A stretch of DNA of 64,000 nt from an uncultured Bdellovibrionales bacterium (GCA_964580285.1 CAZOKB010000001.1:73366-137365), one strand, 5' to 3'; positions 7,833-39,766 are shown, counted from the stretch's first letter. Notes: generated from the sequence alone by a model not told the origin. Numbers and translations: made by a program.

Positions 7833-7838
7833 TAAGTT

Positions 7839-9899: not shown

Positions 9900-9904
9900 C
9901 GCTT

Positions 9905-11525: not shown

Positions 11526-11535
11526 TCAACATTCT

Positions 11536-12993: not shown

Positions 12994-13012
12994 TTTTTTC
13001 CACACTGATTCT

Positions 13013-14596
13013 ATGCACGATACGCACTCCCTTCTTTCTCGTCTTGGTCTCGATCATTTTCCTTCAAAAACGGAACGGAATCTGTTAGTGGTAACGGTAG
13101 CACAGGAACTCTTGCCTGGTGTAGCCCGAACGCTTCTGGCAGATCACGGTCTGCATCTTAAGACTGTCGTAGCCACGGATGAACGGCAGGCTGGAAGAGA
13201 TTTTGTGATCCGGTATATTTTTGGCTTACCCAAAGAGCCCGTGTTTGTGGTCTTGGAAATCGATGTGGATCGCTATGCTTGTACTTTCCCATCATTGGTT
13301 TTTGTGAGCCAAAGCTTCTCATTGTATGAACAGGAAATAAAGAGTTTGTTTGGACTTGAACCGGTAGGGCATCCTAAGCCAGATCGTATTATTTTGCATC
13401 GACACTATCCGAAAGAGTTCTATCCTTTGCGCAAAGATACTGCTTGGGATACCCGTTTTCCACTGCCCACTGAAGATACGGTGACGGAAGTGGAAGGAGT
13501 AGTGGGAGAGGGGATATATCAGATCCCCGTCGGACCGGTCCATGCAGGGATTATCGAGCCGGGGCATTTCCGTTTCAGTGCTCTGGGCGAAGAAATAGTG
13601 AAATTCGAAGCTGAGTTGGGGTATGTGCACAAAGGGACAGAAAAACTCTTTGAAACGCTGCCCTTGGAAAAAACGCTTTCTTTGGCAGAGCATATTTCCG
13701 GGGATAGCTCGGTGCATCATGCGTTAGTATTTGCCCAGGCTGTTGAGACTTTGACAGATGTCCGCGTGCCTGAGCGAGCGAAGCTGATTCGTATGGTATG
13801 TGCAGAACTGGAACGCCTAGCCAATCATTTCAATGATATCGGGTTCATTATGCTCGATACGGGTTTTTCATTCGGAGGGAGTCACGGAGCTCGCTTGCGT
13901 GAACGGGTGATGCAGTGGAACGAACGCCTTACGGGAAACCGTTTTTCTCGAGGGATGATTGCGTTTGGTGGCGTAAACCGAGACATTGAAGAAGCGCTCG
14001 TGGATGCCCTTCAGGATGATCTTGAATTATTGGAAGCTGATTTTAAGGAGGTGATAGAAATAGCCAAGGACTCGGATTCTCTTTATAATCGTTTGAAAGA
14101 AACGGGCCGATTGGATAAGGAGATCGCGGATGATTATGGAGTGATTGGAGTCGGGGCCCGAGCCCTGGGCTACGAGATAGATGCGCGTGTGGATTACCCG
14201 TATGCGGCGTATGAAGCCGTGCAGTTTGCGGTGGCTACCGAGAAACACGGAGATGTACATGCTCGTTTTTTTGTCCGGGTGAAAGAGGTATATCAATCAT
14301 TCCGTATCTTGAATCAGGTGTTAGCTCTACTGCCTTTTGAAACCTCAGCATTAAAAACAGCTCTTCCGGTACTTCCGAGAGAGGCTATGGCCGTAGGTAT
14401 GGTAGAAGGGTGGCGTGGTGATATTGTAACGTTTGTAGCCACAGATGCAGCTGGGAAATTGACTCGTGTCAAAGTGCGCGATACCTCATTCATCAATTGG
14501 CAAATTTTCCCTCACGTTTTATTGCGCGATATTGTTCCCGATTTCCCGCTCATCAACAAGAGCTTCGATCTTTCCTATTCAGGGAATGATCTTTAG
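13013..14596 (+). CDS. NuoC-NuoD fusion / HycE-like large subunit lacking the NiFe-binding CxxC motifs (Ehr-like large subunit)
   Basis: N-terminal NuoC-like domain plus NuoD/HycE-like core (GPVHAGIIEPGHFRFSALGEEIV). No N-terminal RxCGxC or C-terminal DPCxxC cysteines. Confidence 0.75.
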   Translation: MHDTHSLLSRLGLDHFPSKTERNLLVVTVAQELLPGVARTLLADHGLHLKTVVATDERQAGRDFVIRYIFGLPKEPVFVVLEIDVDRYACTFPSLVFVSQSFSLYEQEIKSLFGLEPVGHPKPDRIILHRHYPKEFYPLRKDTAWDTRFPLPTEDTVTEVEGVVGEGIYQIPVGPVHAGIIEPGHFRFSALGEEIVKFEAELGYVHKGTEKLFETLPLEKTLSLAEHISGDSSVHHALVFAQAVETLTDVRVPERAKLIRMVCAELERLANHFNDIGFIMLDTGFSFGGSHGARLRERVMQWNERLTGNRFSRGMIAFGGVNRDIEEALVDALQDDLELLEADFKEVIEIAKDSDSLYNRLKETGRLDKEIADDYGVIGVGARALGYEIDARVDYPYAAYEAVQFAVATEKHGDVHARFFVRVKEVYQSFRILNQVLALLPFETSALKTALPVLPREAMAVGMVEGWRGDIVTFVATDAAGKLTRVKVRDTSFINWQIFPHVLLRDIVPDFPLINKSFDLSYSGNDL

Positions 14597-19872: not shown

Positions 19873-19946
19873 TGCTGGGGAGGAAGGGATCGAACCTTCG
19901 TATGGAGGCTTCAAAGGCCCCTGCCTTACCACTTGGCTACTCCCCA
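19873..19946 (-). tRNA. tRNA-Gln (anticodon UUG)
   Basis: Reverse complement folds as a cloverleaf: acceptor TGGGGAG/CTCCCCA, anticodon loop CUUUGAA, T-arm GAAGG-TTCGATC-CCTTC. Confidence 0.8.
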
Positions 19947-21719: not shown

Positions 21720-22265
21720 TCAACAACCCTGTGCCAAGAGCACAGGGTATGAACTAGAGGAGTCGCAATTGGACTGCCTCAGGTTCCACACCCTGATTTC
21801 TGACATACTTTTCAACCGCTTGCCAGCTTCCTCTTTCTCCAACGGTAGCTACATAGTAACCGTCTGACCAAAACTCTCCACCCCAGAGGTTTTTCTTGAT
21901 GTAGGGATGTTGTTTGAAGAGTTCTCTGGCCGTATTGCTTTTGTACAGACGTACAAATTGTCCGATACTGTACTTTGGATGAAAACTACACAGGAGATGG
22001 ATATGATCTTGGTCGCAACCAAGTTGTTCCATTTCGAACTCGTAGCAATCTTCCAGTGTTTTGGTCAGGTGCTTGAGCGTTGTCACTACCGGTTCGTCGA
22101 GGAGGGCTTTGCGATACTTGACGGGAAAGACGATGTGATAGTGAGTTTGATAGGCACAGTGCCAGCCTTTTTTGAGAGTTTCCATTGCGACTCTAGTCTA
22201 CCTTGAAAACCAACGGTTTTCAAACTTTCCTCATTTGTTCCTGCGGCAAGACCGCAGGGAAAAGG
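21720..22265 (-). mobile_element. IS200/IS605-family insertion sequence (tnpA only, no tnpB) with subterminal hairpins
   Basis: Perfect hairpin CCCTGTGC-caaga-GCACAGGG at 21728-21747 and CCTGCGG-caaga-CCGCAGG at 22240-22258 flank the tnpA ORF. Confidence 0.5.
21754..22185 (-). CDS. tnpA: IS200/IS605 family transposase TnpA (HUH Y1)
   Basis: Near-canonical HYHIVFPVKYRK...HIHLL...SNTARELF HUH-Y1 motifs, 143 aa. Confidence 0.85.
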   Translation of the reverse strand: METLKKGWHCAYQTHYHIVFPVKYRKALLDEPVVTTLKHLTKTLEDCYEFEMEQLGCDQDHIHLLCSFHPKYSIGQFVRLYKSNTARELFKQHPYIKKNLWGGEFWSDGYYVATVGERGSWQAVEKYVRNQGVEPEAVQLRLL

Positions 22266-25268: not shown

Positions 25269-26564
25269 ATGGATCTTCTCGTTTCCAGCTTGCTCAACGC
25301 AGTAAGCGGCATGGGGCAAGGCTTCGCTGCTTTTCTTGACGTGTGGTTTATTGTACTCCCGCCTTTGCTGTATGGGATTTTTTTGCTTCTCTGGATGCAG
25401 TACGTGTGGGGAAAATGGGCTTCAAATGTGAAGTGGATACTGCTCGAGATTATCCCGCCGCGCGATATCGAGAAGAGTCCGCAACCTATGGAATCCATCT
25501 TTGCGGGTTTGGCGGGTGTCATCACTTCTCCCACAGCGATCGAGGAGTATATCAAGGGATTTATTCCTGTGTCGTTTAGTCTGGAATTAGTGAGTACTGA
25601 GGGAACCGTGCATTTCTATATCCGTACGCAGGCACAGTTCCGTAATCTCGTCGAAGCGCATTTTTACGCCCAGTATCCGGATGTGGAGATTATCGAAGTG
25701 CCGGATTATGTACGGGCGATACCGAAGACTATTCCTAATAAGGACTGGGACCTGTGGGGAACGGATTTCGAAGTGACAAAAGATGATCTCTATCCGATTC
25801 GCACCTACAAATATTTTGAGGAATCCGTGACCGGAAAGATGATTGATCCGGTGTCTGGCTTGATCGAGACAATGGGTAAGCTCGGACCGGGACAGCATCT
25901 CTGGTTACAGTTCATCACCACCCCATTGGGCGAAAAAGCTACCCGCGAAGCGCTCCAGAAAACCGTGGATAAATTTCTCGGCAAAGAGAAGCCCGAAGAG
26001 ATCGGAGTCTTTCGGATGTTCTTTATGGATATGTGGGATGTGATCCGTAATCTTCCAGCGGGCGTCTTGGCGAACGAACCGGAGTTTTTTTCCTACAAGC
26101 AAGAGAAGAAGGACGAGCAGCCGGTTGAGTTTCGTCTGACACCGGGTGAAAAAGATGTTTTGAAAGCGCTGCAGGCGAATCTTGGCAAACAGCAGTACAA
26201 GGTGCGTATGCGTATGGTGTATCTCGGCCGGCGTGATGGATTTTCCAAAACGGTCGTCTCATCCTTCATCGGAGGCATCAAGCAGTTTTCGGACCAGAAT
26301 ATGAACGGTTTCAAACCCAATGATGATTCCAAGACCTACGCGAACTATGTTATGACCCAGGAACGATTGCGGTTTCGACAACGGCGTCTCTTCCAGCGCT
26401 ATATCAGTCGGGATAGCACTCCTCAGGAAACCCGTTTTATTTTAAGCTCGGAAGAAATGGCAACGGTATTCCATCTGCCGGATATGTCGGTAGTGGCCCC
26501 AACCATGATGCGGGTTTCGGCTAAGCGCGGGAACGCACCTGCCAATTTGCCTATACAAGAATAG
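25269..26564 (+). CDS. membrane protein partnered with the downstream T4CP-like ATPase
   Basis: N-terminal TM helices. Stop is 7 nt before the ATPase gene start. Confidence 0.45.
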   Translation: MDLLVSSLLNAVSGMGQGFAAFLDVWFIVLPPLLYGIFLLLWMQYVWGKWASNVKWILLEIIPPRDIEKSPQPMESIFAGLAGVITSPTAIEEYIKGFIPVSFSLELVSTEGTVHFYIRTQAQFRNLVEAHFYAQYPDVEIIEVPDYVRAIPKTIPNKDWDLWGTDFEVTKDDLYPIRTYKYFEESVTGKMIDPVSGLIETMGKLGPGQHLWLQFITTPLGEKATREALQKTVDKFLGKEKPEEIGVFRMFFMDMWDVIRNLPAGVLANEPEFFSYKQEKKDEQPVEFRLTPGEKDVLKALQANLGKQQYKVRMRMVYLGRRDGFSKTVVSSFIGGIKQFSDQNMNGFKPNDDSKTYANYVMTQERLRFRQRRLFQRYISRDSTPQETRFILSSEEMATVFHLPDMSVVAPTMMRVSAKRGNAPANLPIQE

Positions 26565-26570
26565 AACCCT

Positions 26571-28811
26571 ATGAGCATGCAAGATGACATTGCTTTTTTC
26601 GCCAAAACGAACTTCCGTAATCAGGAGCGGGTGTTTGGTATCAAGATGGACGACCGTCGCCGACACATGTATGTGATCGGGAAGACGGGTATGGGGAAAA
26701 CCAATCTCCTTGAGAACCTGGTGATTCAGGATATCCAAAAAGGCCACGGCGTGGCGTTTGTCGACCCGCATGGTGATACGGCCGAGAAACTGATCAAGGC
26801 TATCCCAGCCAATCGGATCAACGATGTGATCTATTTCAACCCGTCTGATCAGGATTTCCCGATCGCTTTTAACGTGATGGAAAAAGTAGGTCCGGAATAT
26901 CGGCACCTGGTGGCTTCCGGTTTGGTGGGTGTATTCAAAAAAATCTGGGCAGATTCGTGGGGACCTCGGCTTGAATATATTTTACGGAACGCTATTTTGG
27001 CGCTTCTCGAATACCCGGGGGCTACCCTCTTAGGGGTAACGCGTATTTTGGTAGACAAGGGCTATCGGGAACGAGTGGTAGAAAAGGTAACAGATCCGGT
27101 CGTGAAGAGTTTCTGGGTGGATGAGTTTTCCAAATGGAATGACCGTGTTCTTCAAGAGGTTATCTCGCCGATCCAGAACAAAGTTGGGCAGTTTCTTTCG
27201 AGCTCGCTCATCCGGAATATTGTAGGCCAGACCACATCCTCGTTCGATGTGCGTGCGGCTATGGATAGCCGGAAGATTCTCATTATGAACCTTTCAAAGG
27301 GGCGTATTGGAGAAGATAACAGCGCGCTCCTCGGGGCCATGATGATTACCAAGATCCAGCTCGCGGCTATGGGCCGGGTGGATATGCCAGAAGAAGATCG
27401 GGCAGATTTCTATCTCTATGTCGATGAGTTCCAGAATTTCGCTACGGAATCATTCGCGAATATTCTTTCTGAGGCGAGAAAGTATCACCTCAATCTCGTC
27501 TTGGCCAATCAGTACGTGACGCAGATTGATGAGAAAGTACGGGATGCTATTTTCGGTAATGCAGGCAGCATCATCGCGTTTCGGGTTGGGGCGACCGATG
27601 CGGAATTTCTTGAAAAAGAATTTGATCCTGTTTTTCTCATGAATGACATTGTTAATCTCCCTAAGTACCATATTTACCTCAAACTCATGATTGATGGTAT
27701 TGCGGGGGATGCTTTTAGTGCTGTTTCTCTTCCGCCGATCCGATTGGATCAGACTGAGGAAAACGCCGAAAAAGTCATTCGAATTTCTCGAGAACGGTAC
27801 GCTGCCAACAAAGGGGAAGTGGAAGATAAAATCCGTCGCTGGAGCGGCTTGTTAACGGAAGAGGAAAAAGCGGCGCTCTATAGTGGTGGTGCAGCAGAAC
27901 GACGTTCATTGGAACGACCAGCGCCCAGGGCGGTTCCTCGTCCGGCGGCTACTGTGCCGAAAAAATCAACCGTGATAAGTAGTCGGCCAGCGGCACGGCC
28001 AGTAACACCAGTGGCTGCTCCGCCGCGCCCAGTGACGCCGGTTCCAAAACCGATACCGCAAGCGGTGGTGCCCCAGAAACCCGCAAGGGAACCGGAAGTG
28101 TCGGTAGCCAAGGTTCAAGCGTCTGTACCGGTGCAGGCCGAGACACCCGTGGTTGCCTCGAACCCACTGATAGGTACTGAAGGAGTGAAAAAGGATGCCC
28201 CAACACCTGTTTTTGACCCACGGAAGTTTCAACCGAACCTCATCCGCTGGTCGGGTCATGAAGAGACGGCTAAGAAAAAAGAGGAAGCGCTGCAACAAGA
28301 AGAGCTAACCAATACACCGCCAGTTGAGGAGACAGTGGCGTCCAGCGTTACTCACGAGCCGGTACCGGTTATTGAAATACCAGAGTCAGAAGAAGTATCT
28401 TTGGCAGCAGCAGCGTCGGAGGCAGAGCGTGATGAAGTGCCTGAGAAGGTGTTGTATCCAGCAGCGTGCGCCACGTGCGGTATCGATATCGAGGTTCCGT
28501 TTGAGCCTGTACCGGGGCGCCCCACTTTCTGTAAAGACTGTCTGAAAGATTATCAGCGAGCGACGGCGAAGGCTCGTCGAGAAATGGAATCAAAACAGCA
28601 TCCAATGACTACGACTGCCTCTCTGACACGTTCGTGTACTCCGTCACAACGGCATATGCAGCCACAACGACATATACCGACAGAAGCACCAATGTCGCTC
28701 GCACAGATGCAGCATATCCAGCCGAAAAAATTCAAAACAATCCGTAAAAAACCGGATATTGATTTAGGGGATGTACGTTCGATGATTCAGGCTGTCAGAA
28801 AGGCTCAGTAG
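26571..28811 (+). CDS. TraD/VirD4/HerA-like (type IV coupling protein-like) P-loop ATPase with a Pro/Ala/Val-rich tail and C-terminal C4 zinc ribbon
   Basis: Walker A GKTGMGKTN. T4CP-like LYVDEFQNF...LVLANQY block. Tail repeats of PAARPVTPV. CATCG...CKDC near the C-terminus. Confidence 0.65.
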   Translation: MSMQDDIAFFAKTNFRNQERVFGIKMDDRRRHMYVIGKTGMGKTNLLENLVIQDIQKGHGVAFVDPHGDTAEKLIKAIPANRINDVIYFNPSDQDFPIAFNVMEKVGPEYRHLVASGLVGVFKKIWADSWGPRLEYILRNAILALLEYPGATLLGVTRILVDKGYRERVVEKVTDPVVKSFWVDEFSKWNDRVLQEVISPIQNKVGQFLSSSLIRNIVGQTTSSFDVRAAMDSRKILIMNLSKGRIGEDNSALLGAMMITKIQLAAMGRVDMPEEDRADFYLYVDEFQNFATESFANILSEARKYHLNLVLANQYVTQIDEKVRDAIFGNAGSIIAFRVGATDAEFLEKEFDPVFLMNDIVNLPKYHIYLKLMIDGIAGDAFSAVSLPPIRLDQTEENAEKVIRISRERYAANKGEVEDKIRRWSGLLTEEEKAALYSGGAAERRSLERPAPRAVPRPAATVPKKSTVISSRPAARPVTPVAAPPRPVTPVPKPIPQAVVPQKPAREPEVSVAKVQASVPVQAETPVVASNPLIGTEGVKKDAPTPVFDPRKFQPNLIRWSGHEETAKKKEEALQQEELTNTPPVEETVASSVTHEPVPVIEIPESEEVSLAAAASEAERDEVPEKVLYPAACATCGIDIEVPFEPVPGRPTFCKDCLKDYQRATAKARREMESKQHPMTTTASLTRSCTPSQRHMQPQRHIPTEAPMSLAQMQHIQPKKFKTIRKKPDIDLGDVRSMIQAVRKAQ

Positions 28812-31894: not shown

Positions 31895-31923
31895 TTGACA
31901 AAAATATGTAAATATGCTATTTT
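31895..31923 (+). promoter_or_regulatory. sigma70-like promoter of the island (TTGACA, 17 nt spacer, TGcTATTTT)
   Basis: Consensus -35 at 31895-31900 and extended -10 at 31915-31923. It is followed by a ~90 nt 5'-UTR with inverted repeats CTTGATC/GATCAAG and TGTGC/GCACA. Confidence 0.45.
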
Positions 31924-32014
31924 CTCTTGATCCCTGAGTCTGTGCATGGGGCACAATAACTCTTTGTGATCAAGCCGTTCTTTGGCAAATCAACCCTTCT
32001 TTAGGAGAAATACC

Positions 32015-32662
32015 ATGGCAAAAGCTGCCACTCAAGTACAAGACTCCCTCAAGCGCGTCATGCTGACCCTCGAGGGCATCCGGCCGCTCCTCATCAATAC
32101 CATGACGCCGTTTGAAGTCATGGCGCTGAACAAAGATCTTGCGCCGGACGCTGTCAACAAGGTGAAGGCATTGAAGCAGATGACACTGCCCGAGCAGATC
32201 AAGGTGAAGTACGAGCTCTGGCGCGATCCGGAAACCGGCAAGGTCGGCATTTGGTCGCACATGCTCTACGCTGCTCTGGTCGGCGCCGGCAAGTTCATCA
32301 AGTACGAGGGCAACATGAAGCTCTCGACTTCGAAGAGTTCGCTCGTGCCGAGTTTCCTTACCATCGTCGATGAACACCTACCCTTCGTTGATCAGGGTTC
32401 GGACGGGAAGGGAACGCCGTATACGGACGACTACCGGCGTGGCGAGGCCAATCAGGGCAGCGGTGCCGTGTGCGTCGCTCGTCCCATGATCGGAAGCGGC
32501 TGGCGGGTCGGTGTGGATATCGAGGTGGAGACCACTCTTCTCGATCTCGTCCGTACCCGCGAGCTCTTCGACAAGGCGGGGCGCATGTCTCGCTTGGGCT
32601 CTTTCCGCACCAAGGCTGACTTCGGGATGTTCCGGGTCGCCGAGTGGGAAGTGATGAACTAA
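32015..32662 (+). CDS. hypothetical protein (215 aa) and first gene of the GC3-rich island, of unrecognised family
   Basis: ATG at 32015 preceded by AGGAGA. Strongly GC3-biased codons unlike the flanking genes. Confidence 0.6.
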   Translation: MAKAATQVQDSLKRVMLTLEGIRPLLINTMTPFEVMALNKDLAPDAVNKVKALKQMTLPEQIKVKYELWRDPETGKVGIWSHMLYAALVGAGKFIKYEGNMKLSTSKSSLVPSFLTIVDEHLPFVDQGSDGKGTPYTDDYRRGEANQGSGAVCVARPMIGSGWRVGVDIEVETTLLDLVRTRELFDKAGRMSRLGSFRTKADFGMFRVAEWEVMN

Positions 32663-32674
32663 TATCACTCACGC

Positions 32675-34918
32675 AACTGCGGCGACTTCGGTTGCCGCAG
32701 TTCTCAAGTGTATTTGCAAGAGTATACTTGAGACTCTGCTTTTGAAAGAGAGCAGGGTATAGAGAGTATAGCAATGTATTCTTGTGCTACATTCGGTTTC
32801 GCGGATTTTTGTTTTGGATCGATCCTCTGCTTCAGCACGATCGATCATCTTATAAGGATTCGCAAGAGTTTTTATAAGACTTCGCTTTCGAAAAAGAGTG
32901 AAGCGAAAGATGCAGTTGTGTCGTATGCTGAGCTGTTAGGTATTTTGACCCAGTGTCCTTTATTGGCTCGTACCTCTATGAAAATATGCACGAGCATCTA
33001 AAGCATTTTGGTGACAGAATGTTTTGGACAATCTCTTCGTAAGAGGGGATTGTAATGTTGTTATGCAGCGCCGTGTGTTCTTCTTTCCTATACTTTCGCG
33101 TATCCTAGTGGACCGAGCCTCTCCACCAACGCTCGGTCATCCCTGAATACTTTCAAGAAGAGAGTATTGAGGACAACATCCTCGCAAGAGGGGGTTGTAC
33201 AGTAGTTTCGACTTAAGCTAAGCGTTGTTCTTTGACCTAATTTCCACAAGTGTTCTGGACTGAGCCTCTCCGTCAATGACGGACGCTCGGTCATCCTAAG
33301 CGCTTTTGTGAAAGAGTGTTTAGGACAGCATCCTCGTAAGAGGGGGTTGTGAAGTGTAAGTTCGGACTTGTAAAATTACGCAGTCCAAACTCCGCACGAG
33401 TTCTTTATATTACTGGAGCGAACCTCTCCGCCCAAGGCGGACGTTCGCTCGCTGTTCGCGGGATGTATGTCTCGCCTGATGAGCCGGAAACGGCGAAAAC
33501 AGTCGTTCTTTGATACGGTATCCTACCGTAGAGCTAACAGAAGTTATCCTAATTCGCTTCCTGTTTTGGCTCGTACCTCTGCTTTGGTACGTACGAGCAC
33601 CTTAAATATATTGGGAACAGTGTATTTAAGGCATCATCTTCGAAAAAGGATGATGTACTGGGTAGTGTTGGGTCTCGTCAAGCAACGAAAAGTTACCTTG
33701 GATCCTTTCCTGGATCAGCCCTCTGCCTCGGTACGACTGATCATCTTATGAGTATTCGCAAGAGTGTTCATAAGACTCTTCTCTTGGAAGAGAGTAGAGT
33801 GATTCCAGTTACATCCAGTTACGTACTGCTCTCCGTCGTAGTTTATGTTTCTGGCTCGCACCTCTGCTTCGGTACGTACGAGCATCCAAAGCATTTTAGA
33901 AACAGAATGTTTTGGACAATTTTCTTGGAAGAGAAAATTGTGAAGGGAATAATCTCCTATACCGTTGCGCAACGTACGGTCATGTAGCGTAGCGTAATGG
34001 ACCGAGTCTCTGTATAAATTCATACACGCTCGGTCATCTTATGAATATTTGCAAGAGTGTTCATAAGACTCTGCTTTCGAAAGAGAGCGGGGTACAGTAG
34101 TGTGCCGTCATGCATAGTGCAGTAATGTTTTTTACTGGCTCGTATCTCTGTGCAAGCATGTACGAGCAACTTAAATGCATTGTAAGCAGTGTATTTAAGA
34201 CTTCGCTTTCGCAAGAGAGTGAGGTGAAAGATGCAGTTTTGTCGCATGCTGTGTTGTTAGGTATTTTTATCTAGTGTCCTTTATTGGCTCGTGCCTCTAC
34301 TTCGGCACGCACGAGCACCTTAAACGCATTTACAGAAGTGTGTTTAAGACTTTGCTTTCGAAAGAAAGTAAGGTGTACCAATCTCGTAGCGTGTGGCATA
34401 GTTTTCTTCGGATCGGTGCTTTATTCTAAAGGCTCGCATCTCTCTGTTTCGGCGGATGTGTGAGCATCTTAAGTGCATTTGCAAAAGTGTATTTAAGACT
34501 TCGCTTTCGCAAGAGAGCAGAGTATTTCTGTAAAGCACTGTGGCGTACTGTGGCGTGAACTTCTTTGGACTGAATTGGAGCGGTCTGAATTGCTGGCTTG
34601 CGTCTCTGCGAAAGTACGCGCGAGCACCAAAAGTATTTTGGTAACAGAATATTTTGGGTATTATCTTCGCAAGAGGGTGATACTTGTAGATACGTATTCT
34701 CCGGTCCTGAACTGTGTGTTAAATCAATGCAATGGCTCGTACCTCTCTGTTTCGGCAGACGTACGAGCATCCTGAATATTTTCGAAAAGAGAATATTGAG
34801 GACAATCTCTTCGCAAGAGGGGGTTGTCATAGTAGCATCGTGTTGAGCTAGGTCATCTAGTGCACGTGTATAGTAAATTACTGGACCGAGCCTCTTCGTT
34901 AATGACGAACGCTCGGTC
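32675..34918 (+). repeat. tandem array of about 16 degenerate structured-RNA modules with ~146-nt period. Each module is hairpin E1 (5' stem arm then CCTCT), hairpin E2 (10-bp AT-rich stem), GNRA-tetraloop hairpin E3 (CYYYC-GNAA-GAGRG then GGGKTGT), then a ~50-nt variable linker
   Basis: E1 starts at 32675, 32817, 32965, 33110, 33257, 33415, 33568, 33712, 33853, 33998, 34137, 34285, 34430, 34595, 34733, 34882. Stems covary (GGCTCGTAC/GTACGAGC, GGACCGAGC/GCTCGGTC, GGAGCGAAC/GTTCGCTC, GGCTCGTGC/GCACGAGC, GGATCGATC/GATCGATC). ORFs in the region are repeat translations. Confidence 0.7.
33450..33504 (+). ncRNA. type III hammerhead ribozyme HHR-1, with predicted self-cleavage 3' of C33457
   Basis: Stem III CGCUGUU/AACAGUG. 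GUC-like site UUC, cleaved after it. Stem I GCGGG-atgtatgt-CTCGC. Core CUGAUGA at 33476-33482. Stem II GCCG-GAAA-CGGC, then GAAA at 33495-33498. Confidence 0.8.
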
Positions 34919-35018
34919 GCTGTCGGTAGGTGTGTGCCTATCCTGATGAGCCCAGCACTTACATCATCCGATTCATTGATGGTGTAAGTGCATTCCGTAA
35001 GTGCTGGGCGAAACAGCG
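34918..35018 (+). ncRNA. type III hammerhead ribozyme HHR-2, with predicted cleavage 3' of C34924, ending 30 nt upstream of the helicase start codon (in its 5'-UTR)
   Basis: Stem III CGCUGU/ACAGCG (6 bp). Cleavage site GUC at 34922-34924, cleaved after it. Stem I GGUAGG-ugugug-CCUAUC. CUGAUGA at 34943-34949. 12-bp stem II CCCAGCACUUAC/GUAAGUGCUGGG with a 34-nt loop. GAAA at 35010-35013. Confidence 0.85.
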
Positions 35019-35048
35019 TCATGGTTCATTTCCAAGAGGAGTTTGCAC

Positions 35049-36839
35049 ATGCAAACACATATCATGCAGTTTTTCCCGTACGAGAAGTACGAGCAGCCGA
35101 CAGCGCTGCAGGAAACAGCACTTGCCTTTATCGGCGAAAACGCTTCTTTTGGCCCCGTCGTCACTGAGCTCCCCACCGGGACCGGCAAGACCGCCATTGG
35201 CATCGCGTATTTGCGCGCCATGAGTCAGCCGAAACGTGTGAACTTCTACCTGGTTTCGAACAAAGTGCAGGCAGAGCAGGTGAAGTTGATGCACCCCGAG
35301 GTTGAAATCATGCTCGGCCGAAGCGAGCATCAGTGTCTCTATTACGAAGGTGAACAGGTGAACGCGGAAGAGATTCCGTGCATGGCTCTCAAGGACTGTC
35401 CGCATCGTGTGCACCAGCAAAGCGGCGAGACGCATACACTGGGCGCGATTCCGTGTCCGTACCTCAAGCAGAAGTACGACACGAAAAGTGCTCAGATCGT
35501 TGTTGCGACGGTCCCGTTTTATCTCTGCGCTGTTTTCTTCGGGAAGCAGTACGACGTGGGGGCTGTGGTGGTTGACGAGGCGCATAATATCGCCAAGATC
35601 GTGCGTGGGAGCTTGTCGCACCGTCTCTCCAATCACAAGTTGGAGCGGATGATCGGCGTGCTCGAACACTCAGGTTTCGGCGACGAAGCGGAAACGCTCG
35701 GACAGTTCCTCAAGCTGGTGCGTTCTACGATCACAAGGAATAAGAAACAAGAACGTTCGACGCTCGGGACGACGGAAGTGGAGAAGCTGCTTGGGACTTT
35801 GCGCGGGATTGATCGACGCAAGATTGAGGAAGCGATGTATGCTTCGCTCAAGCAGGGTATTCTCAATCCGGTGAGCGACCGCGATCTCTTGAAGCAATTC
35901 GAGGTGCTCTCGCGGGATCTCAAACGTTACATCAACTCGCTGGAGTTCTCTTTGCCGCAGGGTGATCATAAGCCGCTTGCGTATGCGTTTGGGTATCTGG
36001 ATCCGGAGTACGAGGACGGGAAGAAAGACTTTGCACTGGTGATCAAGAATTATCATGTCGCTGGTCTCATCCACCACATGCTTCCGGAGAAGACACTCGC
36101 GTACTCGGCAACCATCGGCGACGCGGAATGTTTCGGTTTTGAAACCGGGCTGCGTGGCGCGTTCACTTCACTTGAGTCGGAATTTGCTCATGAGAAGACG
36201 CGTATCTATATGCCGACCGACACGCAGGATCTTGCGTACGACAGTCGTGGTAATCGCGATGTAGCACGTTCGCTCCGGCTTGTAGCGCGTAGTGTCGCCA
36301 AGTTCAACATGCAAGGGTTGCGATCGCTCGTGGTGCTCGTATCTGAAGACGAACGGCAGCGGTTCTTGCGGATGTGTCCGGAAGCAGAACTAAACGGCGG
36401 AGCTCTTGAAGCTGTTTCGTACGGCAAAGGGGTGACAGCACGGGAAGCCGCGGTGCGGTTTAAGGATGGCGTTGGCGATGTGCTTGTGGGGACGGTGTCG
36501 CAGTACGGCGAGGGGGTTGATCTCCCGAATCGCATTGCACCGGTCATTTTTTATCTCCGACCGGCCTATCCCAATCCCTATGAACCGGAAGCGCAGTTTG
36601 AAGCTAGTCGGTACGGATCGCGCCGGTTTGCGGTTTGGAACTGGCGGGTGATGAACGATCTTCTGCAAGTGCGAGGGCGCAATATCCGCTCGGTGAATGA
36701 CGAAGGGGTCACCTTTCTCATTTCCCAGCAGTTTCGCAAGTTCGCCCGCCCGACACTTCCGAAGTGGCTCCTGCCGGCGTACGTGGCCGACAAGAGTATG
36801 GAAGAGTGCGTGGATGACGCGATGCGACTTCTCGTTTAA
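35049..36839 (+). CDS. DinG/XPD (Rad3)-family FeS-cluster DEAH-box helicase
   Basis: Motif I LPTGTGKT. Four-cysteine FeS insertion (HQCLYY...CMALKDCP...CPY). Motif II VVDEAHN. Strong SD AAGAGGAG 7 nt before ATG 35049. GC3-rich like the island ORF. Confidence 0.75.
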   Translation: MQTHIMQFFPYEKYEQPTALQETALAFIGENASFGPVVTELPTGTGKTAIGIAYLRAMSQPKRVNFYLVSNKVQAEQVKLMHPEVEIMLGRSEHQCLYYEGEQVNAEEIPCMALKDCPHRVHQQSGETHTLGAIPCPYLKQKYDTKSAQIVVATVPFYLCAVFFGKQYDVGAVVVDEAHNIAKIVRGSLSHRLSNHKLERMIGVLEHSGFGDEAETLGQFLKLVRSTITRNKKQERSTLGTTEVEKLLGTLRGIDRRKIEEAMYASLKQGILNPVSDRDLLKQFEVLSRDLKRYINSLEFSLPQGDHKPLAYAFGYLDPEYEDGKKDFALVIKNYHVAGLIHHMLPEKTLAYSATIGDAECFGFETGLRGAFTSLESEFAHEKTRIYMPTDTQDLAYDSRGNRDVARSLRLVARSVAKFNMQGLRSLVVLVSEDERQRFLRMCPEAELNGGALEAVSYGKGVTAREAAVRFKDGVGDVLVGTVSQYGEGVDLPNRIAPVIFYLRPAYPNPYEPEAQFEASRYGSRRFAVWNWRVMNDLLQVRGRNIRSVNDEGVTFLISQQFRKFARPTLPKWLLPAYVADKSMEECVDDAMRLLV

Positions 36840-36860: not shown

Positions 36861-36890
36861 GGCCTACTACTAAAATAGTAGGCCTTTTTC
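36861..36890 (+). terminator. rho-independent terminator of the island (GGCCTACTA-ctaaaa-TAGTAGGCC then TTTTT)
   Basis: Perfect 9-bp stem followed by a T-run, 22 nt after the helicase stop. Confidence 0.75.
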
Positions 36891-36901
36891 TTTTTCCTAA
36901 A

Positions 36902-37117: not shown

Positions 37118-39766
37118 ATGAACATCAACAAATTCACTACTAAAAGTCAGGAGGCGCTCCGGCACGCACAGGAGATTGCTTTGTCACGCAATAATCCGCA
37201 GATGGAGATCGCGCATCTTCTTTATGCGCTCCTCATGCAGGAAGATTCTATTGTGCCGGTGGTGATCGGAAAGTTAGGGATAGATATCGAGGTGGTACGA
37301 GGAGCCGTGCTGGATGAGATTGATAAGTTCCCGCGGGCTGAATCTGGGGCGATCGGCCAATTGTATCTGGCTCCGCATTTGGCACAGGTCTTTGCTGAGG
37401 CTGAAAAAGAAATGCAGAAAATCGGCGATACGTTTGTTTCGACGGAACACTTGCTGTTAGCTGTACTCTTGGTGCCGAGTCATGTGAAGTCGGCTCTTGA
37501 AAGTATGCAGGTGCGGTACGATGTCGTCTTGACGATGCTTAAGGAGGTGCGCGGTAATCAACGGGTGGAGAGTCAAGAACCGGAACAAACTTATCAAGCG
37601 CTGGAAAAATATGCCCTTAATCTTACCAAGCAGGCACGCGAAGAAAAGCTGGATCCTGTGATCGGTCGGGATGAAGAAATTCGCCGGGTGATGCAGGTCC
37701 TGTCACGGCGCACGAAGAATAATCCGGTACTGATCGGTGAGGCGGGTACGGGGAAGACGGCAATCGCGGAGGGTTTGGCGCAGCGGATCGTTTCGGGTGA
37801 TGTTCCCGAAAGTCTTAAGGAAAAAGAAATTATTTCGCTCGACTTAGGGGCGCTCTTGGCGGGAGCCAAGTTCCGAGGAGAATTTGAAGAACGCTTGAAA
37901 GCCATTCTGAAAGAGGTAGAGCGTTCAGCAGAGCGGTTCATTCTCTTTATCGATGAAATCCATACGCTCGTGGGGGCGGGAGCGACCGATGGAGCGCTGG
38001 ACGCTTCGAATATGCTGAAGCCGGCTTTGGCTCGAGGAAAGCTTCGGACGATTGGTGCTACTACGCTGAAGGAATATCAAAAATATATTGAGAAAGACGC
38101 GGCGTTTGAGCGGCGTTTTCAGCCGGTGTTTGTGAGTGAACCTTCAGAAGAGGACGCTATCGCTATTCTTCGGGGCATTAAGGAAAAGTATGAATTGCAT
38201 CATGGTGTGAAGATAGATGATGATGCGCTGATTGCAGCGGTGCGTTTATCACGCCGCTATATCAGTGACCGCTTCCTTCCGGACAAGGCTATCGACCTGA
38301 TTGATGAAGCTGCTTCGCTTCGGCGCATGGAAATTGATTCGATGCCGGAAGATTTGGATCAGTTGGAGCGGAATATCCGTCGACTGGAAATTGAGAAACG
38401 GGCGTTGGAAAAAGAGCGCGAGGCATCAGCCAAAAAGAAGATTGCTGCTATCAACCGGGAACTTTCTGAATTACGGGAACGCAGCCAGAAATTTTCTCTG
38501 CAATGGAAAGCGGAACGTGAACTGATCGCGGCTATACGGGCGCGTAAGGAAGAACTGGACCGCTACCGTTCGGAAGCGGATAGTGCTGAGCGGCGAGGCG
38601 AACTGGATCGGGTCGCGGAGATTCGCTATGGATTGATTCCTGAAACTGAGAAAAAGATGCGAGCGGAGGAAAAGAAGCTGGAAGGTTTGCAACAGTCAGG
38701 ATCCATCTTGCGGGAAGAGATTACGGAGGAAGAAATAGCGGCGGTGGTCTCGCGCTGGACGGGGGTACCTATAAAGAAGATGCTTGCAGGAGAAGAAGAA
38801 AAGCTGGTGTATATGGAAAAGGCTCTGCAAGAACGGGTGATCGGGCAGGATGATGCCATCCGTGTCGTTGCACAGGCGATTCGGCGTTCCCGGACCGGTC
38901 TGTCGGAAGAAGGTCGGCCGATTGGATCTTTTATGTTCCTCGGTATGACGGGTGTTGGAAAAACGGAGCTGGCTAAGGCGCTGGCGGCCTTCCTCTTTGA
39001 TGATGAACGGGCGTTGGTGCGGGTAGATATGAGTGAATACATGGAAGCGCATGCCACGGCCAAACTGATTGGATCACCTCCGGGGTATGTGGGGCACGAT
39101 GAGGGAGGACAGTTGACGGAGACGATTCGTCGGCGGCCGTATAGCGTGATCCTGTTTGATGAAATTGAAAAAGCCCATCCAGAAGTTTTCAATATTTTCT
39201 TGCAGATTCTGGATGATGGCCGGCTCACCGATGCCAAAGGGCGGGTGGTGAATTTCAAGAATAGTGTCATTATCATGACGTCGAATGTCGGCTCCGATGT
39301 TCTGCTGAGGATGCAGGCACTTGGTTTCCAGGGGGAGCGCAAAGATCGGGATGATCCACGAGAAGAAGATATGAAGTCGAAAATTATGGCCAGCTTGAAA
39401 GAAACATTTCGGCCGGAGTTTTTGAACCGTATTGACGAGATCGTGGTCTTTCATCCGCTTTCGAAGCAGGCGATTCGGAATATTGTGGATGCTGAATTGA
39501 AAAAATTGGATCGTCGACTTGCGGTACAAGAGATTCGTATAGAATGGCCAGAGAGCGTGCGGAAGCACTTGGCAGAAAAGGGGTATGATCCGCTCTACGG
39601 TGCGCGGCCGCTCAAGCGGGTGATACAGAACGATATTCTTGATGTACTGGCTCTGGATATCCTGGAGAAAAAATGGGAGGCCGGCCGATGGCTTCGGGCT
39701 TCAGTAGAGAAGGGGCGAATAGCTTTCGGGGTACGCCGTCCGATTCAAAAGAGGAAAAAGATCTAA
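37118..39766 (+). CDS. clpB: ATP-dependent chaperone ClpB
   Basis: Clp N-domain, NBD1 (GEAGTGKTA), long coiled-coil middle domain, NBD2 (GMTGVGKTE) and the ClpB C-terminus. Confidence 0.9.

What the first reader, a model, noticed from the sequence alone, without database searches (positions are those of the whole stretch)
32675..35018. Unexplained 2.3 kb tandem array of about 16 covarying three-hairpin RNA modules between an unknown protein and a DinG-like helicase
Seen directly: 16 module starts spaced 138-165 nt apart (mean about 146). Each module has the same order: hairpin E1 (a CCTCT pentamer follows the 5' arm), hairpin E2 (about 10-bp stem), hairpin E3 with a GNAA tetraloop (CTTCG-C/T-AAGAG), a G-run (GGGGTTGT), and a poorly conserved ~50-nt linker. 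Primary sequence is degenerate but pairing is preserved by compensatory substitutions. E1 examples are GGCTCGTAC..GTACGAGC, GGACCGAGC..GCTCGGTC, GGAGCGAAC..GTTCGCTC and GGCTCGTGC..GCACGAGC. E2 examples are CTTAAATGCA..TGTATTTAAG, CTTATGAATA..TGTTCATAAG and AAAGCATT..AATGTTTT. This pattern is the hallmark of a selected RNA structure rather than a MITE or protein repeat. The modules are far too long, degenerate and structured to be CRISPR repeats, and no cas genes are present. Inference: this is a transcribed structured-RNA array, possibly processed into units by the embedded ribozymes. It is co-operonic with an FeS helicase on a compositionally foreign island. I cannot match it to any RNA family I know (not OLE, GOLLD, ROOL, HEARO or type III TA repeats). 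This is the best candidate for a new system in the window.
Basis: partly seen in the sequence, partly recalled or inferred. Interest (0 to 1): 0.92.

Follow-up and report, generated by a model that had tools for sequence, protein, structure and literature searches.

The report
VIPR guide-RNA array in a Patescibacterium
The 2.3 kb "mystery" RNA array is the guide-RNA array of a VIPR system, a CRISPR-like RNA-guided DNA-recognition system first described in 2026 preprints; it sits between its small Cas7-like protein and a DinG/XPD-type helicase in a Patescibacteria chromosome.

Summary
There are 16 tandem units with 138-164 nt spacing. Thirteen carry the three hairpins E1-E2-E3, which covary strongly: 96% of cells are paired and 21 of 32 pairs show double changes. 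Two units carry E1 plus a type III hammerhead instead. No Rfam family matches the modules.

The interpretation missed two things.
- The "unknown 215-aa protein" is a minimal Cas7-like RAMP. It is homologous to the Vipr protein of phage SUSP1 (profile E 1.5e-16; hhalign 98%).
- The "poorly conserved ~50-nt linkers" are about ten pentanucleotide repeats, YNNNG (equivalently N-G-Y-N-N). They are in phase with E1 and give a lag-5 autocorrelation z of 6.3.

This is the signature of vrRNAs of VIPR systems (bioRxiv 10.64898/2026.04.26.720920). That preprint also reports YNNNG repeats, hammerhead-interspersed arrays and helicase accessory genes.

The cassette of Vipr, array and helicase is widespread in Patescibacteria. 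A Vipr gene lies within 3 kb of the helicase homologue in 59 of 73 species-representative loci.

Verdict: this is a new member of a very recently described kind, with 15 guides. Expression, processing, targets and the helicase's role are inferred, not shown. One perfect 20/20 candidate target in a viral contig cannot be distinguished from chance.

The parts
31895..31923 (+). Promoter-like site (TTGACA-17-TATTTT, with TG) upstream of vipr
   Evidence: This is a consensus match only; the number of such sites in the region is not above the shuffle expectation.
32015..32662 (+). vipr: a 215-aa minimal RAMP (Cas7-like) protein with the C-terminal G-loop LGSFRTKADFGMF
   Evidence: The AF2 model has pLDDT 79.7. 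The top 50 Foldseek PDB hits are all Csm3, Cmr4 or type VII Cas7, best E 5e-7. BFVD hits are phage RAMP-like proteins. The family profile A2 hits SUSP1 ALH47069.1 at E 1.5e-16, and hhalign gives 98.2%. It matches phrog_4652. There are 363 representative homologues.
32675..32758 (+). Unit 0, directly after the vipr stop: variant E1' hairpin 32675-32702 (no CUCU loop), E2 32703-32732, E3 32733-32758. No pentamer tract lies upstream of it.
   Evidence: Read from the sequence. CM R1 scores 56.8 bits.
32759..32904 (+). vrRNA unit 1: pentamer tract 32759-32815, E1 32816-32847, E2 32849-32878, E3 32879-32904
   Evidence: An orthologous tract is in L002 (43/50 identical).
32905..33053 (+). vrRNA unit 2: tract 32905-32964, E1 32965-32996, E2 32998-33027, E3 33028-33053
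33054..33198 (+). vrRNA unit 3: tract 33054-33109, E1 33110-33139, E2 33142-33172, E3 33173-33198
33199..33350 (+). vrRNA unit 4: tract 33199-33256, E1 33257-33293, E2 33295-33324, E3 33325-33350
33351..33503 (+). vrRNA unit 5: tract 33351-33414, E1 33415-33450, then type III hammerhead HHR1 33451-33503 in place of E2/E3. Predicted self-cleavage is after C33457.
   Evidence: Rfam RF00008 27 bits. CM R2 74.7 bits. Compensatory changes against the L001 copy.
33504..33656 (+). vrRNA unit 6: tract 33504-33567, E1 33568-33599, E2 33601-33630, E3 33631-33656
33657..33800 (+). vrRNA unit 7: tract 33657-33711, E1 33712-33743, E2 33745-33774, E3 33775-33800
33801..33941 (+). vrRNA unit 8: tract 33801-33852 (contains a 10-nt, two-pentamer duplication at 33804-33822), E1 33853-33884, E2 33886-33915, E3 33916-33941
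33942..34093 (+). vrRNA unit 9: tract 33942-33998, E1 33999-34036, E2 34038-34067, E3 34068-34093. This guide gave the 20/20 candidate target in IMG/VR.
34094..34225 (+). vrRNA unit 10: tract 34094-34136 (the cleanest run: TACAG TAGTG TGCCG TCATG CATAG TGCAG TAATG), E1 34137-34168, E2 34170-34199, E3 34200-34225
34226..34374 (+). vrRNA unit 11: tract 34226-34285 (a paralogue of the unit 2 tract, within the 77%-identical 172-nt repeat D6), E1 34286-34317, E2 34319-34348, E3 34349-34374
34375..34523 (+). vrRNA unit 12: tract 34375-34430, E1 34431-34466, E2 34468-34497, E3 34498-34523
   Evidence: An orthologous tract is in L002 (37/50).
34524..34683 (+). vrRNA unit 13: tract 34524-34594 (the longest; contains a 10-nt duplication at 34537-34556; out of phase with E1), E1 34595-34626, E2 34628-34657, E3 34658-34683
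34684..34827 (+). vrRNA unit 14: tract 34684-34733, E1 34734-34769, E2 34771-34801, E3 34802-34827
   Evidence: An orthologous tract is in L001 (37/50).
34828..35017 (+). vrRNA unit 15: tract 34828-34882, E1 34883-34918, then type III hammerhead HHR2 34919-35017 with a long stem II insertion. Predicted cleavage is after C34924. It ends 31 nt before the helicase ATG.
   Evidence: Rfam RF00008 34 bits over the full model 1-54. The orthologous hammerhead in L001 at 2019-2073 scores 39.5 bits.
35049..36839 (+). Candidate vap: a 596-aa DinG/XPD(Rad3)-family SF2 helicase with a Cys-rich insert consistent with a 4Fe-4S domain. RBS AGGAG at 35037-35041.
   Evidence: Pfam Helicase_C_2, DEAD_2, ResIII. 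The best PADLOC model is typeIV_DinG PDLC01439, E 2e-33, full length. A Vipr gene lies next to its homologues in 7 of 7 loci and in 59 of 73 loci.
36861..36894 (+). Intrinsic terminator (9-bp stem plus a T-run) that ends the vipr-array-helicase unit
   Evidence: sequence

Best explanation
The locus 31.9-36.9 kb is a VIPR (Viral Interference Programmable Repeat) system on a Patescibacteria chromosome. It consists of vipr (32015-32662), a 15-guide vrRNA array (32675-35017) and a DinG/XPD-like helicase as the accessory (vap) gene (35049-36839).

**Shown here**
- The protein is a Vipr-family RAMP.
- Each array unit holds about ten N-G-Y-N-N pentamers (written YNNNG in the array's register). G and Y are conserved, and the two bases after Y are at maximum entropy.
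- The pentamers abut, and are in phase with, a conserved covarying hairpin, E1.
- E1 is followed either by two more GNRA-capped hairpins (E2-E3, 13 units) or by a hammerhead (2 units).
- The cassette is conserved across Patescibacteria.

**Inferred by analogy with the SUSP1 system** (preprints 10.64898/2026.04.26.720920 and 10.64898/2026.04.26.720927)
1. One long transcript is made from the promoter upstream of vipr.
2. The two hammerheads cut after C33457 and C34924. This splits the array and frees the helicase mRNA with a 5'-OH structured leader.
3. The other unit boundaries are cut by an unidentified RNase, or by Vipr. The cut lies either between E1 and E2 or after E3.
4. About ten Vipr protomers polymerise on each tract, one per pentamer. 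They hold G and Y and present the NN dinucleotides. The filament is registered or capped by E1.
5. The filament reads double-stranded DNA by a gapped code (NN plus one skipped base), so about 20 nt of specificity is spread over about 30 bp.
6. The helicase is recruited to bound targets, presumably phages or other mobile elements of these CRISPR-poor bacteria, to unwind or clear them. This would add to the pure transcriptional silencing shown for SUSP1.
For: **Protein**
- Foldseek top hits are all Cas7 proteins.
- The A2 profile finds exactly one ORF in the first 50 kb of phage SUSP1, ALH47069.1, at E 1.5e-16. hhalign gives 98.2% over 171 columns.
- That ORF is flanked by the published GGYNN repeat RNAs.
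- The thumb RP motif and the G-loop (GxG-[FW]-R...FG-F) align with SUSP1 R138, W178 and R179 (residue roles from 10.64898/2026.04.26.720927).

**RNA**
- Autocorrelation in the 15 linkers gives z = 6.3, 5.3 and 4.8 at lags 5, 10 and 15, and negative or near-zero z at every other lag tested.
- With one fixed anchor (the first G of E1) and no per-unit fitting, the pentamer composition over 150 pentamers is:
  - position 1: T 76%, C 16%, G 0%
  - positions 2-3: 0.06 and 0.01 bits
  - position 4: T 47%
  - position 5: G 59%
- The preprint lists YNNNG as a natural vrRNA variant, 9-16 repeats per vrRNA, a structured 3' tail, hammerhead-interspersed arrays and helicase vap genes.
- The same periodicity appears in the intergenic RNA of homologous loci and in the SUSP1 positive control, but not in coding controls.

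**Conservation**
- Vipr is directly upstream of the helicase in 7 of 7 sampled loci with different neighbours.
- Vipr is within 3 kb in 59 of 73 GTDB species loci.
- Hammerheads on the same strand flank the helicase in 10 of those loci.
- Guides differ, and are reordered, between strains whose Vipr proteins are 81-96% identical, while the tails are kept.

**Structure and ribozymes**: covariation of the tails and of the hammerheads.
Against: - Nothing here shows transcription, processing, Vipr binding or DNA targeting.
- The conserved motif is weaker than canonical GGY. G1 is lost and G2 is only 59% G.
- The tail (about 95 nt, three hairpins) is much longer than in SUSP1. Whether E2-E3 belong to the 3' tail, to the 5' leader of the next guide, or to a discarded processing spacer is unknown.
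- Only 2 of 15 junctions have a ribozyme.
- No convincing target was found.
  - There is no self-target in the window above shuffled controls.
  - One perfect 20/20 match in IMG/VR has its skipped bases at codon position 1 or 2 in the plausible ORFs, not at wobble.
  - With four 20-base guides scanned, that hit could be chance.
- The helicase could be a merely syntenic housekeeping gene.
- The VIPR type (I-VII) could not be assigned, because the preprint's figures and tables are not held.
Confidence: 0.85

Rival explanations
1. A degenerate type IV-like CRISPR-Cas remnant. The RAMP would be a Cas7 (Csf2-like), the helicase a CasDinG, and the array a decayed CRISPR array with very long repeats and about 50-nt spacers.
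For: The best PADLOC hit of the helicase is typeIV_DinG (E 2e-33). The RAMP fold is Cas7-like. The layout alternates conserved and variable segments.
Against: - No Cas5, Cas6, Cas8 or Cas1/2 was found among the larger ORFs (>=140 aa) covering most of the window.
- The repeats are about 64% identical and are maintained by compensatory change, not by identity.
- The "spacers" have a 5-nt periodic conserved frame, which CRISPR spacers lack.
- The protein is sequence-homologous to SUSP1 Vipr.
Confidence: 0.03
2. A structured non-coding RNA array whose function lies in the hairpins, for example a protein sponge or scaffold, or a novel processing or ribozyme module. The RAMP-like protein would only bind or process it, and the linkers would not act as guides.
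For: Selection on E1-E3 pairing is very strong. E2-E3 occupy the same position as the hammerhead in two units. No target was proven.
Against: - The linkers have a protein-sized 5-nt register locked to E1, with conserved G/Y and free NN. This is exactly the vrRNA grammar.
- Linkers turn over between strains while tails persist, as expected for guides.
- The three-hairpin tail is clade-specific, whereas the pentamer tracts and Vipr are general.
Confidence: 0.07
3. A hammerhead-delimited RNA that is excised (33458-34924, 1467 nt) and circularised, like retrozyme or viroid-like RNAs. The modules would be its structural body.
For: Two same-strand type III hammerheads lie 1467 nt apart. The cleavage products would carry 5'-OH and 2',3'-cyclic phosphate ends, which RtcB-type ligases could join (general knowledge).
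Against: - Related loci place hammerheads at quite different intervals and around the helicase ORF itself. That fits operon and guide processing, not a defined replicon.
- No reverse transcriptase is found nearby.
- This reading does not explain the pentamer code or the Vipr linkage.
Confidence: 0.03
4. DNA-level repeats (MITE, REP/BIME or integron attC-like sites) rather than an RNA.
For: The units are tandem, imperfect palindromes with conserved structure but poor sequence identity.
Against: - Many pairs are G.U on the + strand and would be A.C on the other strand.
- All units are on one strand, with GNRA or UUCG loops.
- Functional hammerheads are embedded.
- There are no terminal inverted repeats, target duplications or cassettes.
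- The module model R1 gives no significant hit elsewhere in the window.
Confidence: 0.01

Closest known systems
VIPR systems, reference type II of Escherichia phage SUSP1 (bioRxiv 10.64898/2026.04.26.720920; structures in 10.64898/2026.04.26.720927)
   Same: - A small single-RRM RAMP (Vipr) that is sequence-homologous (E 1.5e-16).
- Guide RNAs built from about 10 tandem pentamers with conserved G/Y and hypervariable NN.
- A structured conserved element 3' of each tract.
- Several guides in an array next to vipr, with an adjacent accessory gene.
- No Cas1/2.
   Different: - The repeat is N-G-Y-N-N (YNNNG), not G-G-Y-N-N.
- There are 15 guides rather than 4.
- The tail is about 95 nt and has three hairpins.
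- Two hammerheads are present.
- The accessory gene is a 596-aa DinG/XPD helicase, not a small DNA-binding Vap1.
- It is chromosomal in Patescibacteria rather than phage-borne.
- The G1-contacting residues H17 and D177 of SUSP1 are N28 and S196 here.
Other VIPR types in the same preprint: hammerhead-interspersed arrays (examples from types I and V), enzyme-associated types III-V (nucleases or helicases), and alternative repeats NNNGG/YNNNG/NNNNG
   Same: Each unusual feature of this locus (YNNNG repeats, hammerheads between guides, a helicase neighbour, a cellular chromosome) is mentioned there as occurring in some VIPR type.
   Different: The type of this locus could not be assigned, because the figures and tables are not held. 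Neither 'Patescibacteria' nor 'CPR' occurs in the preprint's text. The mix of mostly ribozyme-free junctions with two hammerheads, and the covarying E1-E2-E3 tail, are not described in the text available.
Type IV-A CRISPR-Cas (Csf complex with CasDinG)
   Same: A Cas7-fold RNA-binding backbone protein together with a DinG-family helicase. The likely logic is RNA-guided DNA binding followed by helicase action.
   Different: There is no Csf1, Cas5 or Cas6 and no CRISPR repeats. The guide is non-contiguous. The helicase is only distantly related to CasDinG (it hits one PADLOC model at 114 bits; the others are weak).
Csm3/Cmr4/type VII Cas7 (RAMP backbone subunits)
   Same: The predicted fold matches, TM about 0.5 and E down to 5e-7. 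A G-rich loop and a thumb are present.
   Different: Sequence identity is 8-14%. The protein is smaller, and there is no partner Cas10/Cas5 or other subunit.
Type III hammerhead ribozyme (Rfam RF00008)
   Same: The full catalytic core is present, with a three-stem type III topology and a C at the cleavage site. Stem covariation is strong.
   Different: Scores are below Rfam's gathering threshold (27-40 bits against 48.5). HHR2 has a 52-nt insertion in stem II. Here the ribozyme is used as a guide-array and operon processing element.

Membership tests
VIPR system | A Vipr protein: a minimal RAMP homologous to the SUSP1 Vipr | tested here: met
   hmmsearch of profile A2 against SUSP1 ORFs gives a single hit, ALH47069.1, at E 1.5e-16. 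hhalign gives 98.2%, E 3e-14. That ORF is confirmed as the SUSP1 Vipr by its flanking GGYNN repeat RNAs. The fold matches Cas7.
VIPR system | vrRNAs made of 9-16 tandem pentanucleotide repeats with conserved GGY-type positions alternating with hypervariable NN | tested here: met
   The lag-5, lag-10 and lag-15 z-scores are 6.3, 5.3 and 4.8. The anchored logo is Y(92%)-N-N-n-G(59%) over about 10 units in each of 15 tracts. This is the YNNNG variant named in the preprint. The canonical GG is reduced to a single, weaker G.
VIPR system | A conserved structured element (tail) 3' of the repeat tract | tested here: met
   E1 directly follows every tract and is in phase with it in 13 of 15 units. E1-E3 covary. 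Which hairpins remain in the mature RNA is not known.
VIPR system | A minimal locus: vipr plus an accessory vap gene, with no CRISPR array and no adaptation genes | tested here: met
   The helicase is adjacent, and the linkage is conserved in 59 of 73 loci. No cas genes were found by Pfam or PADLOC among the larger ORFs covering most of the window.
VIPR system | vrRNAs are expressed, co-purify with Vipr and direct gapped (1-nt skip) DNA recognition | not testable with these tools
   This needs small-RNA sequencing, pull-down and binding or repression assays. The in-silico target search was inconclusive.
VIPR type I-VII assignment | Position in the Vipr phylogeny, together with vrRNA architecture and vap identity | not testable with these tools
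   The classification data (Fig. 5A, fig. S16-S17, data S4) are not held. The text says only that types III-V carry nucleases or helicases and that types I and V have ribozyme arrays.
CRISPR-Cas type IV | A Csf1/Cas8-like subunit, Cas5 (Csf3), Cas7 (Csf2), usually Cas6 (Csf5), and a CRISPR array of near-identical short repeats | tested here: not met
   Only one RAMP and a DinG-like helicase are present. The repeats are about 95 nt and about 64% identical. No other cas hits were found.
Hammerhead ribozyme type III (RF00008) | The conserved core CUGAUGA...GAAA, a cleavage-site NUH, and three helices with stems I and II closed | tested here: met
   Alignments to RF00008. Ten homologous copies have an invariant core, and 14 of 17 pairs are compensated. 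Scores are below Rfam's gathering cut-off. Cleavage activity was not tested.
Any Rfam family for the E1-E2-E3 module | A score at or above a family's gathering threshold | tested here: not met
   There is no hit at gathering level. At E<=10 only chance-level miRNA and snoRNA matches appear.

The most novel reading that the evidence does not exclude
The Vipr-array-DinG/XPD helicase cassette may be a distinct, Patescibacteria-wide VIPR subtype. It would be chromosomally maintained, with large self-processing multi-guide arrays and a helicase effector, and it would serve as the main RNA-guided defence of a radiation otherwise almost devoid of CRISPR-Cas (the latter point is from my own knowledge: Burstein et al. 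2016). Within it, the E2-E3 double hairpin would be a ribozyme-independent processing signal, functionally interchangeable with the hammerhead, and possibly a new self-cleaving or RNase-recruiting motif.
Probability: 0.3. Interest if true: 0.7.

Novelty: new member of a known kind. Interest (0 to 1): 0.5.

Why it matters
VIPR is a newly reported way of recognising DNA with RNA. The guide is non-contiguous and built from pentamer repeats, it is read by a filament of a primitive RAMP, and the system has been proposed as the ancestor of CRISPR effectors.

What this locus adds:
- It is one of the larger natural guide arrays, with 15 guides.
- It uses a weakened N-G-Y-N-N grammar.
- It couples the guides to a DinG/XPD helicase instead of a DNA-binding protein.
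- It mixes hammerhead and non-ribozyme junctions in one array. That makes it a natural experiment on how vrRNAs are processed.

The survey here (59 of 73 species-level loci) suggests that many Patescibacteria carry the cassette. These are tiny episymbiotic bacteria that generally lack CRISPR-Cas. If the cassette works as inferred, it would change the picture of how they defend themselves. It would also offer a compact two-protein system of RNA-guided binder plus helicase.

Tried and rejected
- **Tandem Repeats Finder** misses the array because it is too degenerate.
- **Rfam**, at gathering and at E<=10, has no family for the modules.
- **tblastn of the 215-aa protein against 50,697 phage records** gave no match. 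Only the family profile reaches SUSP1 Vipr.
- **The search for related loci.** The 40-sequence Vipr alignment was too diverse to use. The 5-sequence alignment found nothing in GTDB genomes, so this lineage has no close representative there. The best helicase identity is 49%.
- **Pfam, NCBIfam, PADLOC and PDB sequence searches** give nothing significant for the 215-aa protein.
- **G1 loss explained by G-loop residues?** I considered that the loss of G1 in the repeat is explained by H17->N and D177->S in the G-loop. I rejected this as unsupported: L009 Vipr also has GLGSFRP, but its repeats keep R-G-Y.
- **Self-targeting** was tested under eight codes (NN or NNN, with skip 0-3). Nothing exceeded shuffled controls. 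One 23/30 match at 16883 includes non-guide bases and is taken as chance.
- **IMG/VR exact scans with the 1-nt-skip code**:
  - The unit 9 guide gave one 20/20 hit (L012 6407-6435, next to an integrase) and a 16/20 second site in the same 8 kb.
  - Three other guides gave no hits.
  - Two composition-matched shuffles gave no hits.
  - An 18-base guide gave one chance-level hit.
  - The skipped bases are not at wobble positions, so this is kept only as a lead.
- **Other readings rejected** for the reasons given under rivals: type IV CRISPR, MITE/attC, and retrozyme-like circular RNA.
- **"Foreign island".** GC deviates only modestly, and there are no integrase or prophage genes beside the cassette.


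Full report
**1. The observation**

Reading 32000-35600 and searching for GG-N7-CTCT gives 15 unit starts between 32816 and 34883, spaced 138-164 nt. One more, atypical, unit lies directly after the upstream gene's stop codon at 32675-32758. Thirteen units have three hairpins.

An alignment of those 13 units (A1) has only 64% mean column identity. RNAalifold nevertheless predicts 32 pairs, and 21 of them show changes on both sides. In the explicit count:
- 96.2% of cells form standard pairs.
- Column shuffles give 77%, and 0 of 500 reach the observed value.
- Sliding the 3' partners by 1-3 columns gives 39-50%.

G.U pairs are frequent, which fixes the + strand as the RNA strand.

The hairpins are as follows:
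- E1 is an 8-bp stem with an invariant CUCU/AC internal loop and a variable distal hairpin.
- E2 and E3 both end in GNRA-type loops.

Units 33415 and 34883 have E1 followed at once by a type III hammerhead. These score 27 and 34 bits in Rfam, below the gathering score. Ten copies from four genomes share an invariant CUGAUGA/GAAA core and show compensatory changes in 14 of 17 stem pairs. No Rfam family fits the modules.

**2. The flanking protein**

The 215-aa protein (32015-32662) has no Pfam, NCBIfam, PADLOC or PDB sequence match. It does match phrog_4652, a family of unknown function.

An exhaustive HMMER search finds 363 representative homologues of about 200-230 aa. Their alignment (A2) shows an invariant RP motif and a C-terminal glycine-rich loop, GLGxFRPxxxGxFGRF.

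An AlphaFold model built on that alignment has pLDDT 79.7. Every one of its top 50 PDB matches is a Cas7-family RAMP (Csm3, Cmr4 or type VII Cas7), with E down to 5e-7. Against viral models it matches about 200-aa phage proteins, one of them annotated as a RAMP. So a cas-like gene is present after all.

**3. Identification as VIPR**

A literature search found a June 2026 bioRxiv preprint, 10.64898/2026.04.26.720920. It describes Viral Interference Programmable Repeat systems with these features:
- a minimal ancestral RAMP (Vipr);
- an accessory gene (vap);
- vrRNAs made of 9-16 YNNGG pentamers followed by a structured tail;
- natural variants that include YNNNG repeats, hammerhead-interspersed arrays, and nuclease or helicase vap genes.

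A companion paper shows one Vipr protomer per pentamer. The protomers hold GGY and present NN for gapped DNA pairing.

I tested each defining feature.

(a) *Protein homology.* I fetched phage SUSP1 (KT454805). The A2 profile hits exactly one ORF in its first 50 kb, ALH47069.1, at E 1.5e-16, and hhalign gives 98.2%. That ORF is flanked by one upstream and three downstream runs of GGYNN repeats. This is the published layout, so the ORF is the SUSP1 Vipr.

(b) *Pentamer repeats.* The 15 "linkers" of the window show base autocorrelation at lags 5, 10 and 15 with z = 6.3, 5.3 and 4.8. No other lag stands out. I then anchored all tracts on the first G of E1, with no per-unit phase fitting. The ten pentamers upstream read:

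| Position | Composition | Information |
|---|---|---|
| 1 | T 76%, C 16%, G 0% | 0.98 bits |
| 2 | near uniform | 0.06 bits |
| 3 | near uniform | 0.01 bits |
| 4 | T 47% | 0.18 bits |
| 5 | G 59% | 0.44 bits |

That is YNNNG, or N-G-Y-N-N in the canonical register. The tract is in phase with E1 in 13 of 15 units.

(c) *Minimal locus.* The locus is vipr, the array and one adjacent gene. No other cas genes were found among the larger ORFs covering most of the window.

**4. The helicase and the distribution**

The downstream 596-aa protein is a DinG/XPD-family helicase. Its best defence-model match is a type IV CasDinG model, E 2e-33. It has about 200 homologues of 41-50% identity in Patescibacteria MAGs.

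*Sampled loci.* In seven independent loci (the window, L001, L004-6, L007, L009, L010 and L011), a Vipr homologue lies directly upstream of the helicase on the same strand. The genes beyond the cassette are different housekeeping genes in each case.

*Species representatives.* A scan of GTDB species representatives with a helicase alignment returned 73 loci. Most come from Patescibacteria-type MAGs, among them Parcu-, Kaiser-, Taylor-, Moran-, Uhr-, Kerfeld-, Doudna-, Komeili-, Berkel- and Portnoybacteria and Paceibacterota. A few records carry other labels, such as Gammaproteobacteria or archaeal names. Of these 73, 59 have a Vipr-family ORF within the 3-kb flank. About half of the 14 exceptions have truncated upstream flanks or only a partial or weak helicase match; in others the array may simply exceed 3 kb, as it does in the window.

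*RNA elements in those loci.*
- Their intergenic RNA shows the same 5-nt periodicity, as does the SUSP1 positive control. Coding controls do not.
- In L009 the repeat is the near-canonical NN-R-G-U.
- Same-strand hammerheads occur in ten of the loci, up to eleven in L014. They often bracket the helicase ORF itself.
- The three-hairpin tail is restricted to the window's relatives, L004-6 and L014.

*Guide turnover.* Between strains whose Vipr proteins are 81-96% identical, some tracts are orthologous (43/50, 37/50 and 37/50 identical). Others are unique, and the order differs. This is the pattern expected of guides that turn over while tails persist. Two tracts contain 10-nt duplications, that is two pentamers each, which suggests growth by slippage in units of the code.

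**5. How it most likely works**

*Shown:* the parts, their order, their covariation, the pentamer grammar and the conserved gene linkage.

*Inferred:*
1. A single transcript runs from the promoter-like site at 31895-31923 to the terminator at 36861-36884.
2. The hammerheads cleave after C33457 and C34924. This releases the helicase mRNA, whose start codon lies 31 nt after HHR2, and splits the array.
3. The other junctions are processed by an unknown nuclease.
4. About ten Vipr protomers coat each tract, registered by E1.
5. The NN positions read DNA with one skipped base, giving about 20 nt of specificity.
6. The helicase acts on the bound target.

Two maturation models remain open. In the first, each vrRNA is tract plus E1-E2-E3. 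In the second, cleavage falls between E1 and E2, so that each vrRNA is E2-E3 (or a hammerhead body) plus tract plus E1. The second model accounts neatly for three facts: the tract-less first unit, the exact replacement of E2-E3 by a hammerhead, and E1 being the only element always next to a tract.

**6. Targets**

Under eight candidate codes, no site in the window exceeds shuffled controls. This agrees with the absence of self-targeting reported in the preprint.

Exact-pattern scans of IMG/VR with the 1-nt-skip code gave:
- one 20/20 match for the unit 9 guide, in a 132.8-kb viral contig (L012 6407-6435). It lies in a 67-aa ORF just upstream of an integrase, and a 16/20 second site lies 5 kb away;
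- no matches for three other guides;
- no matches for two composition-matched shuffles;
- one match for an 18-base guide, at the level expected by chance.

The skipped bases of the 20/20 site do not fall on wobble positions. With four 20-base guides tried, I cannot exclude chance, so this stays a lead.

**7. Comparison and novelty**

The locus meets every VIPR criterion that sequence analysis can test. It fails the criteria for a type IV CRISPR-Cas system. Each of its unusual features is mentioned in the preprint as occurring in some VIPR type: YNNNG repeats, hammerheads, a helicase and a cellular chromosome. I therefore rate it a new member of a known, though months-old, kind.

What the text available to me does not describe:
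- the breadth across Patescibacteria;
- the long covarying E1-E2-E3 tail;
- the mixture of ribozyme and non-ribozyme junctions.

The type (I-VII) cannot be assigned without the preprint's figures and data, which are not held.

**8. Verdict**

Its interpretation is partly supported: it was right about a selected, ribozyme-containing RNA array in an operon with the helicase. It was wrong about the absence of cas-like genes and about the linkers, and the system is not new in kind. Confidence that this is a VIPR system is 0.85. Interest is 0.5.

Noticed in passing
L012 6407-6435 and 1341-1370 (IMGVR_UViG_3300045988_157634): The unit 9 guide, read as NN plus one skipped base, matches a viral contig 20/20. 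The site is in a 67-aa ORF beside an integrase. A second site in the same 8 kb matches 16/20 and shares the first five units. Five other 20-base patterns (three real guides and two shuffles) gave no hit. The skipped bases are not at wobble positions.
   Followed up: partly
window 33804-33822 and 34537-34556: Exact 10-nt tandem duplications (TCCAGTTACA x1.9 and ACTGTGGCGT x2) lie inside two guide tracts. Each is two pentamer units, which suggests tracts lengthen by slippage in multiples of the 5-nt code.
   Followed up: no
L014 1595-5790 (Candidatus Parcubacteria bacterium S40-23, JANLIU010000041.1): This is the richest related locus: 11 hammerheads and 7 three-hairpin modules on one strand, on both sides of the helicase gene. 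It would be a good comparator for working out processing rules.
   Followed up: partly
L007 3945-4643 (GCA_964424235.1): The public gene call here is a 201-aa ORF on the opposite strand (4140-4745). The Vipr homologue on the + strand (profile E 9e-72) is not called. Vipr genes may be under-annotated in MAGs.
   Followed up: partly
L004 8107-8295 and L007 5457-5813: Small ORFs (62 and 118 aa, no Pfam match) sit next to hammerheads within the same cassettes. The L007 ORF is bracketed by hammerheads on both sides, and the L004 ORF follows one directly. They may be further accessory genes released as separate mRNAs.
   Followed up: no
protein P0005 (4004 aa, from the representative library): A giant protein has 24 separate stretches matching residues about 18-92 of the Vipr protein (E 1e-32). 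It may be a tandem multi-RAMP fusion or an assembly or gene-calling artefact.
   Followed up: no
window 7287-14596: A cluster encodes complex I / Mrp-Mbh-like subunits (Oxidored_q6, two Proton_antipo_M, NADHdh, Oxidored_q2, and a fused 30-kDa/49-kDa subunit). This is unexpected in a Patescibacteria-type genome, since these are usually described as lacking respiratory complexes (own knowledge).
   Followed up: no
window 21754-22185 (-) and 19874-19946 (-): An IS200-type Y1 transposase gene lies about 1.8 kb from the only tRNA of the window (tRNA-Gln), with dnaX between them. No TnpB partner was seen.
   Followed up: no
window 25269-28811: Two adjacent genes match phrog_5156. The second is a VirD4/TraD-like coupling ATPase with a C-terminal CxxC-x17-CxxC treble-clef zinc finger, and it also matches the PADLOC model mad8. 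It may belong to the Patescibacteria type IV secretion or DNA-uptake machinery. It is not obviously linked to the VIPR cassette.
   Followed up: no
window 37118-39766 and 50419-52881: There are two ClpB-like AAA+ genes in one window. The second (820 aa) lacks a Clp_N match.
   Followed up: no
window 32816-34918 (E1 of all 15 units): The CUCU/AC internal loop of E1 is invariant, even in the two units where E2-E3 are replaced by a hammerhead. Its role therefore does not depend on E2-E3. It may be a protein-recognition or filament-capping site.
   Followed up: no
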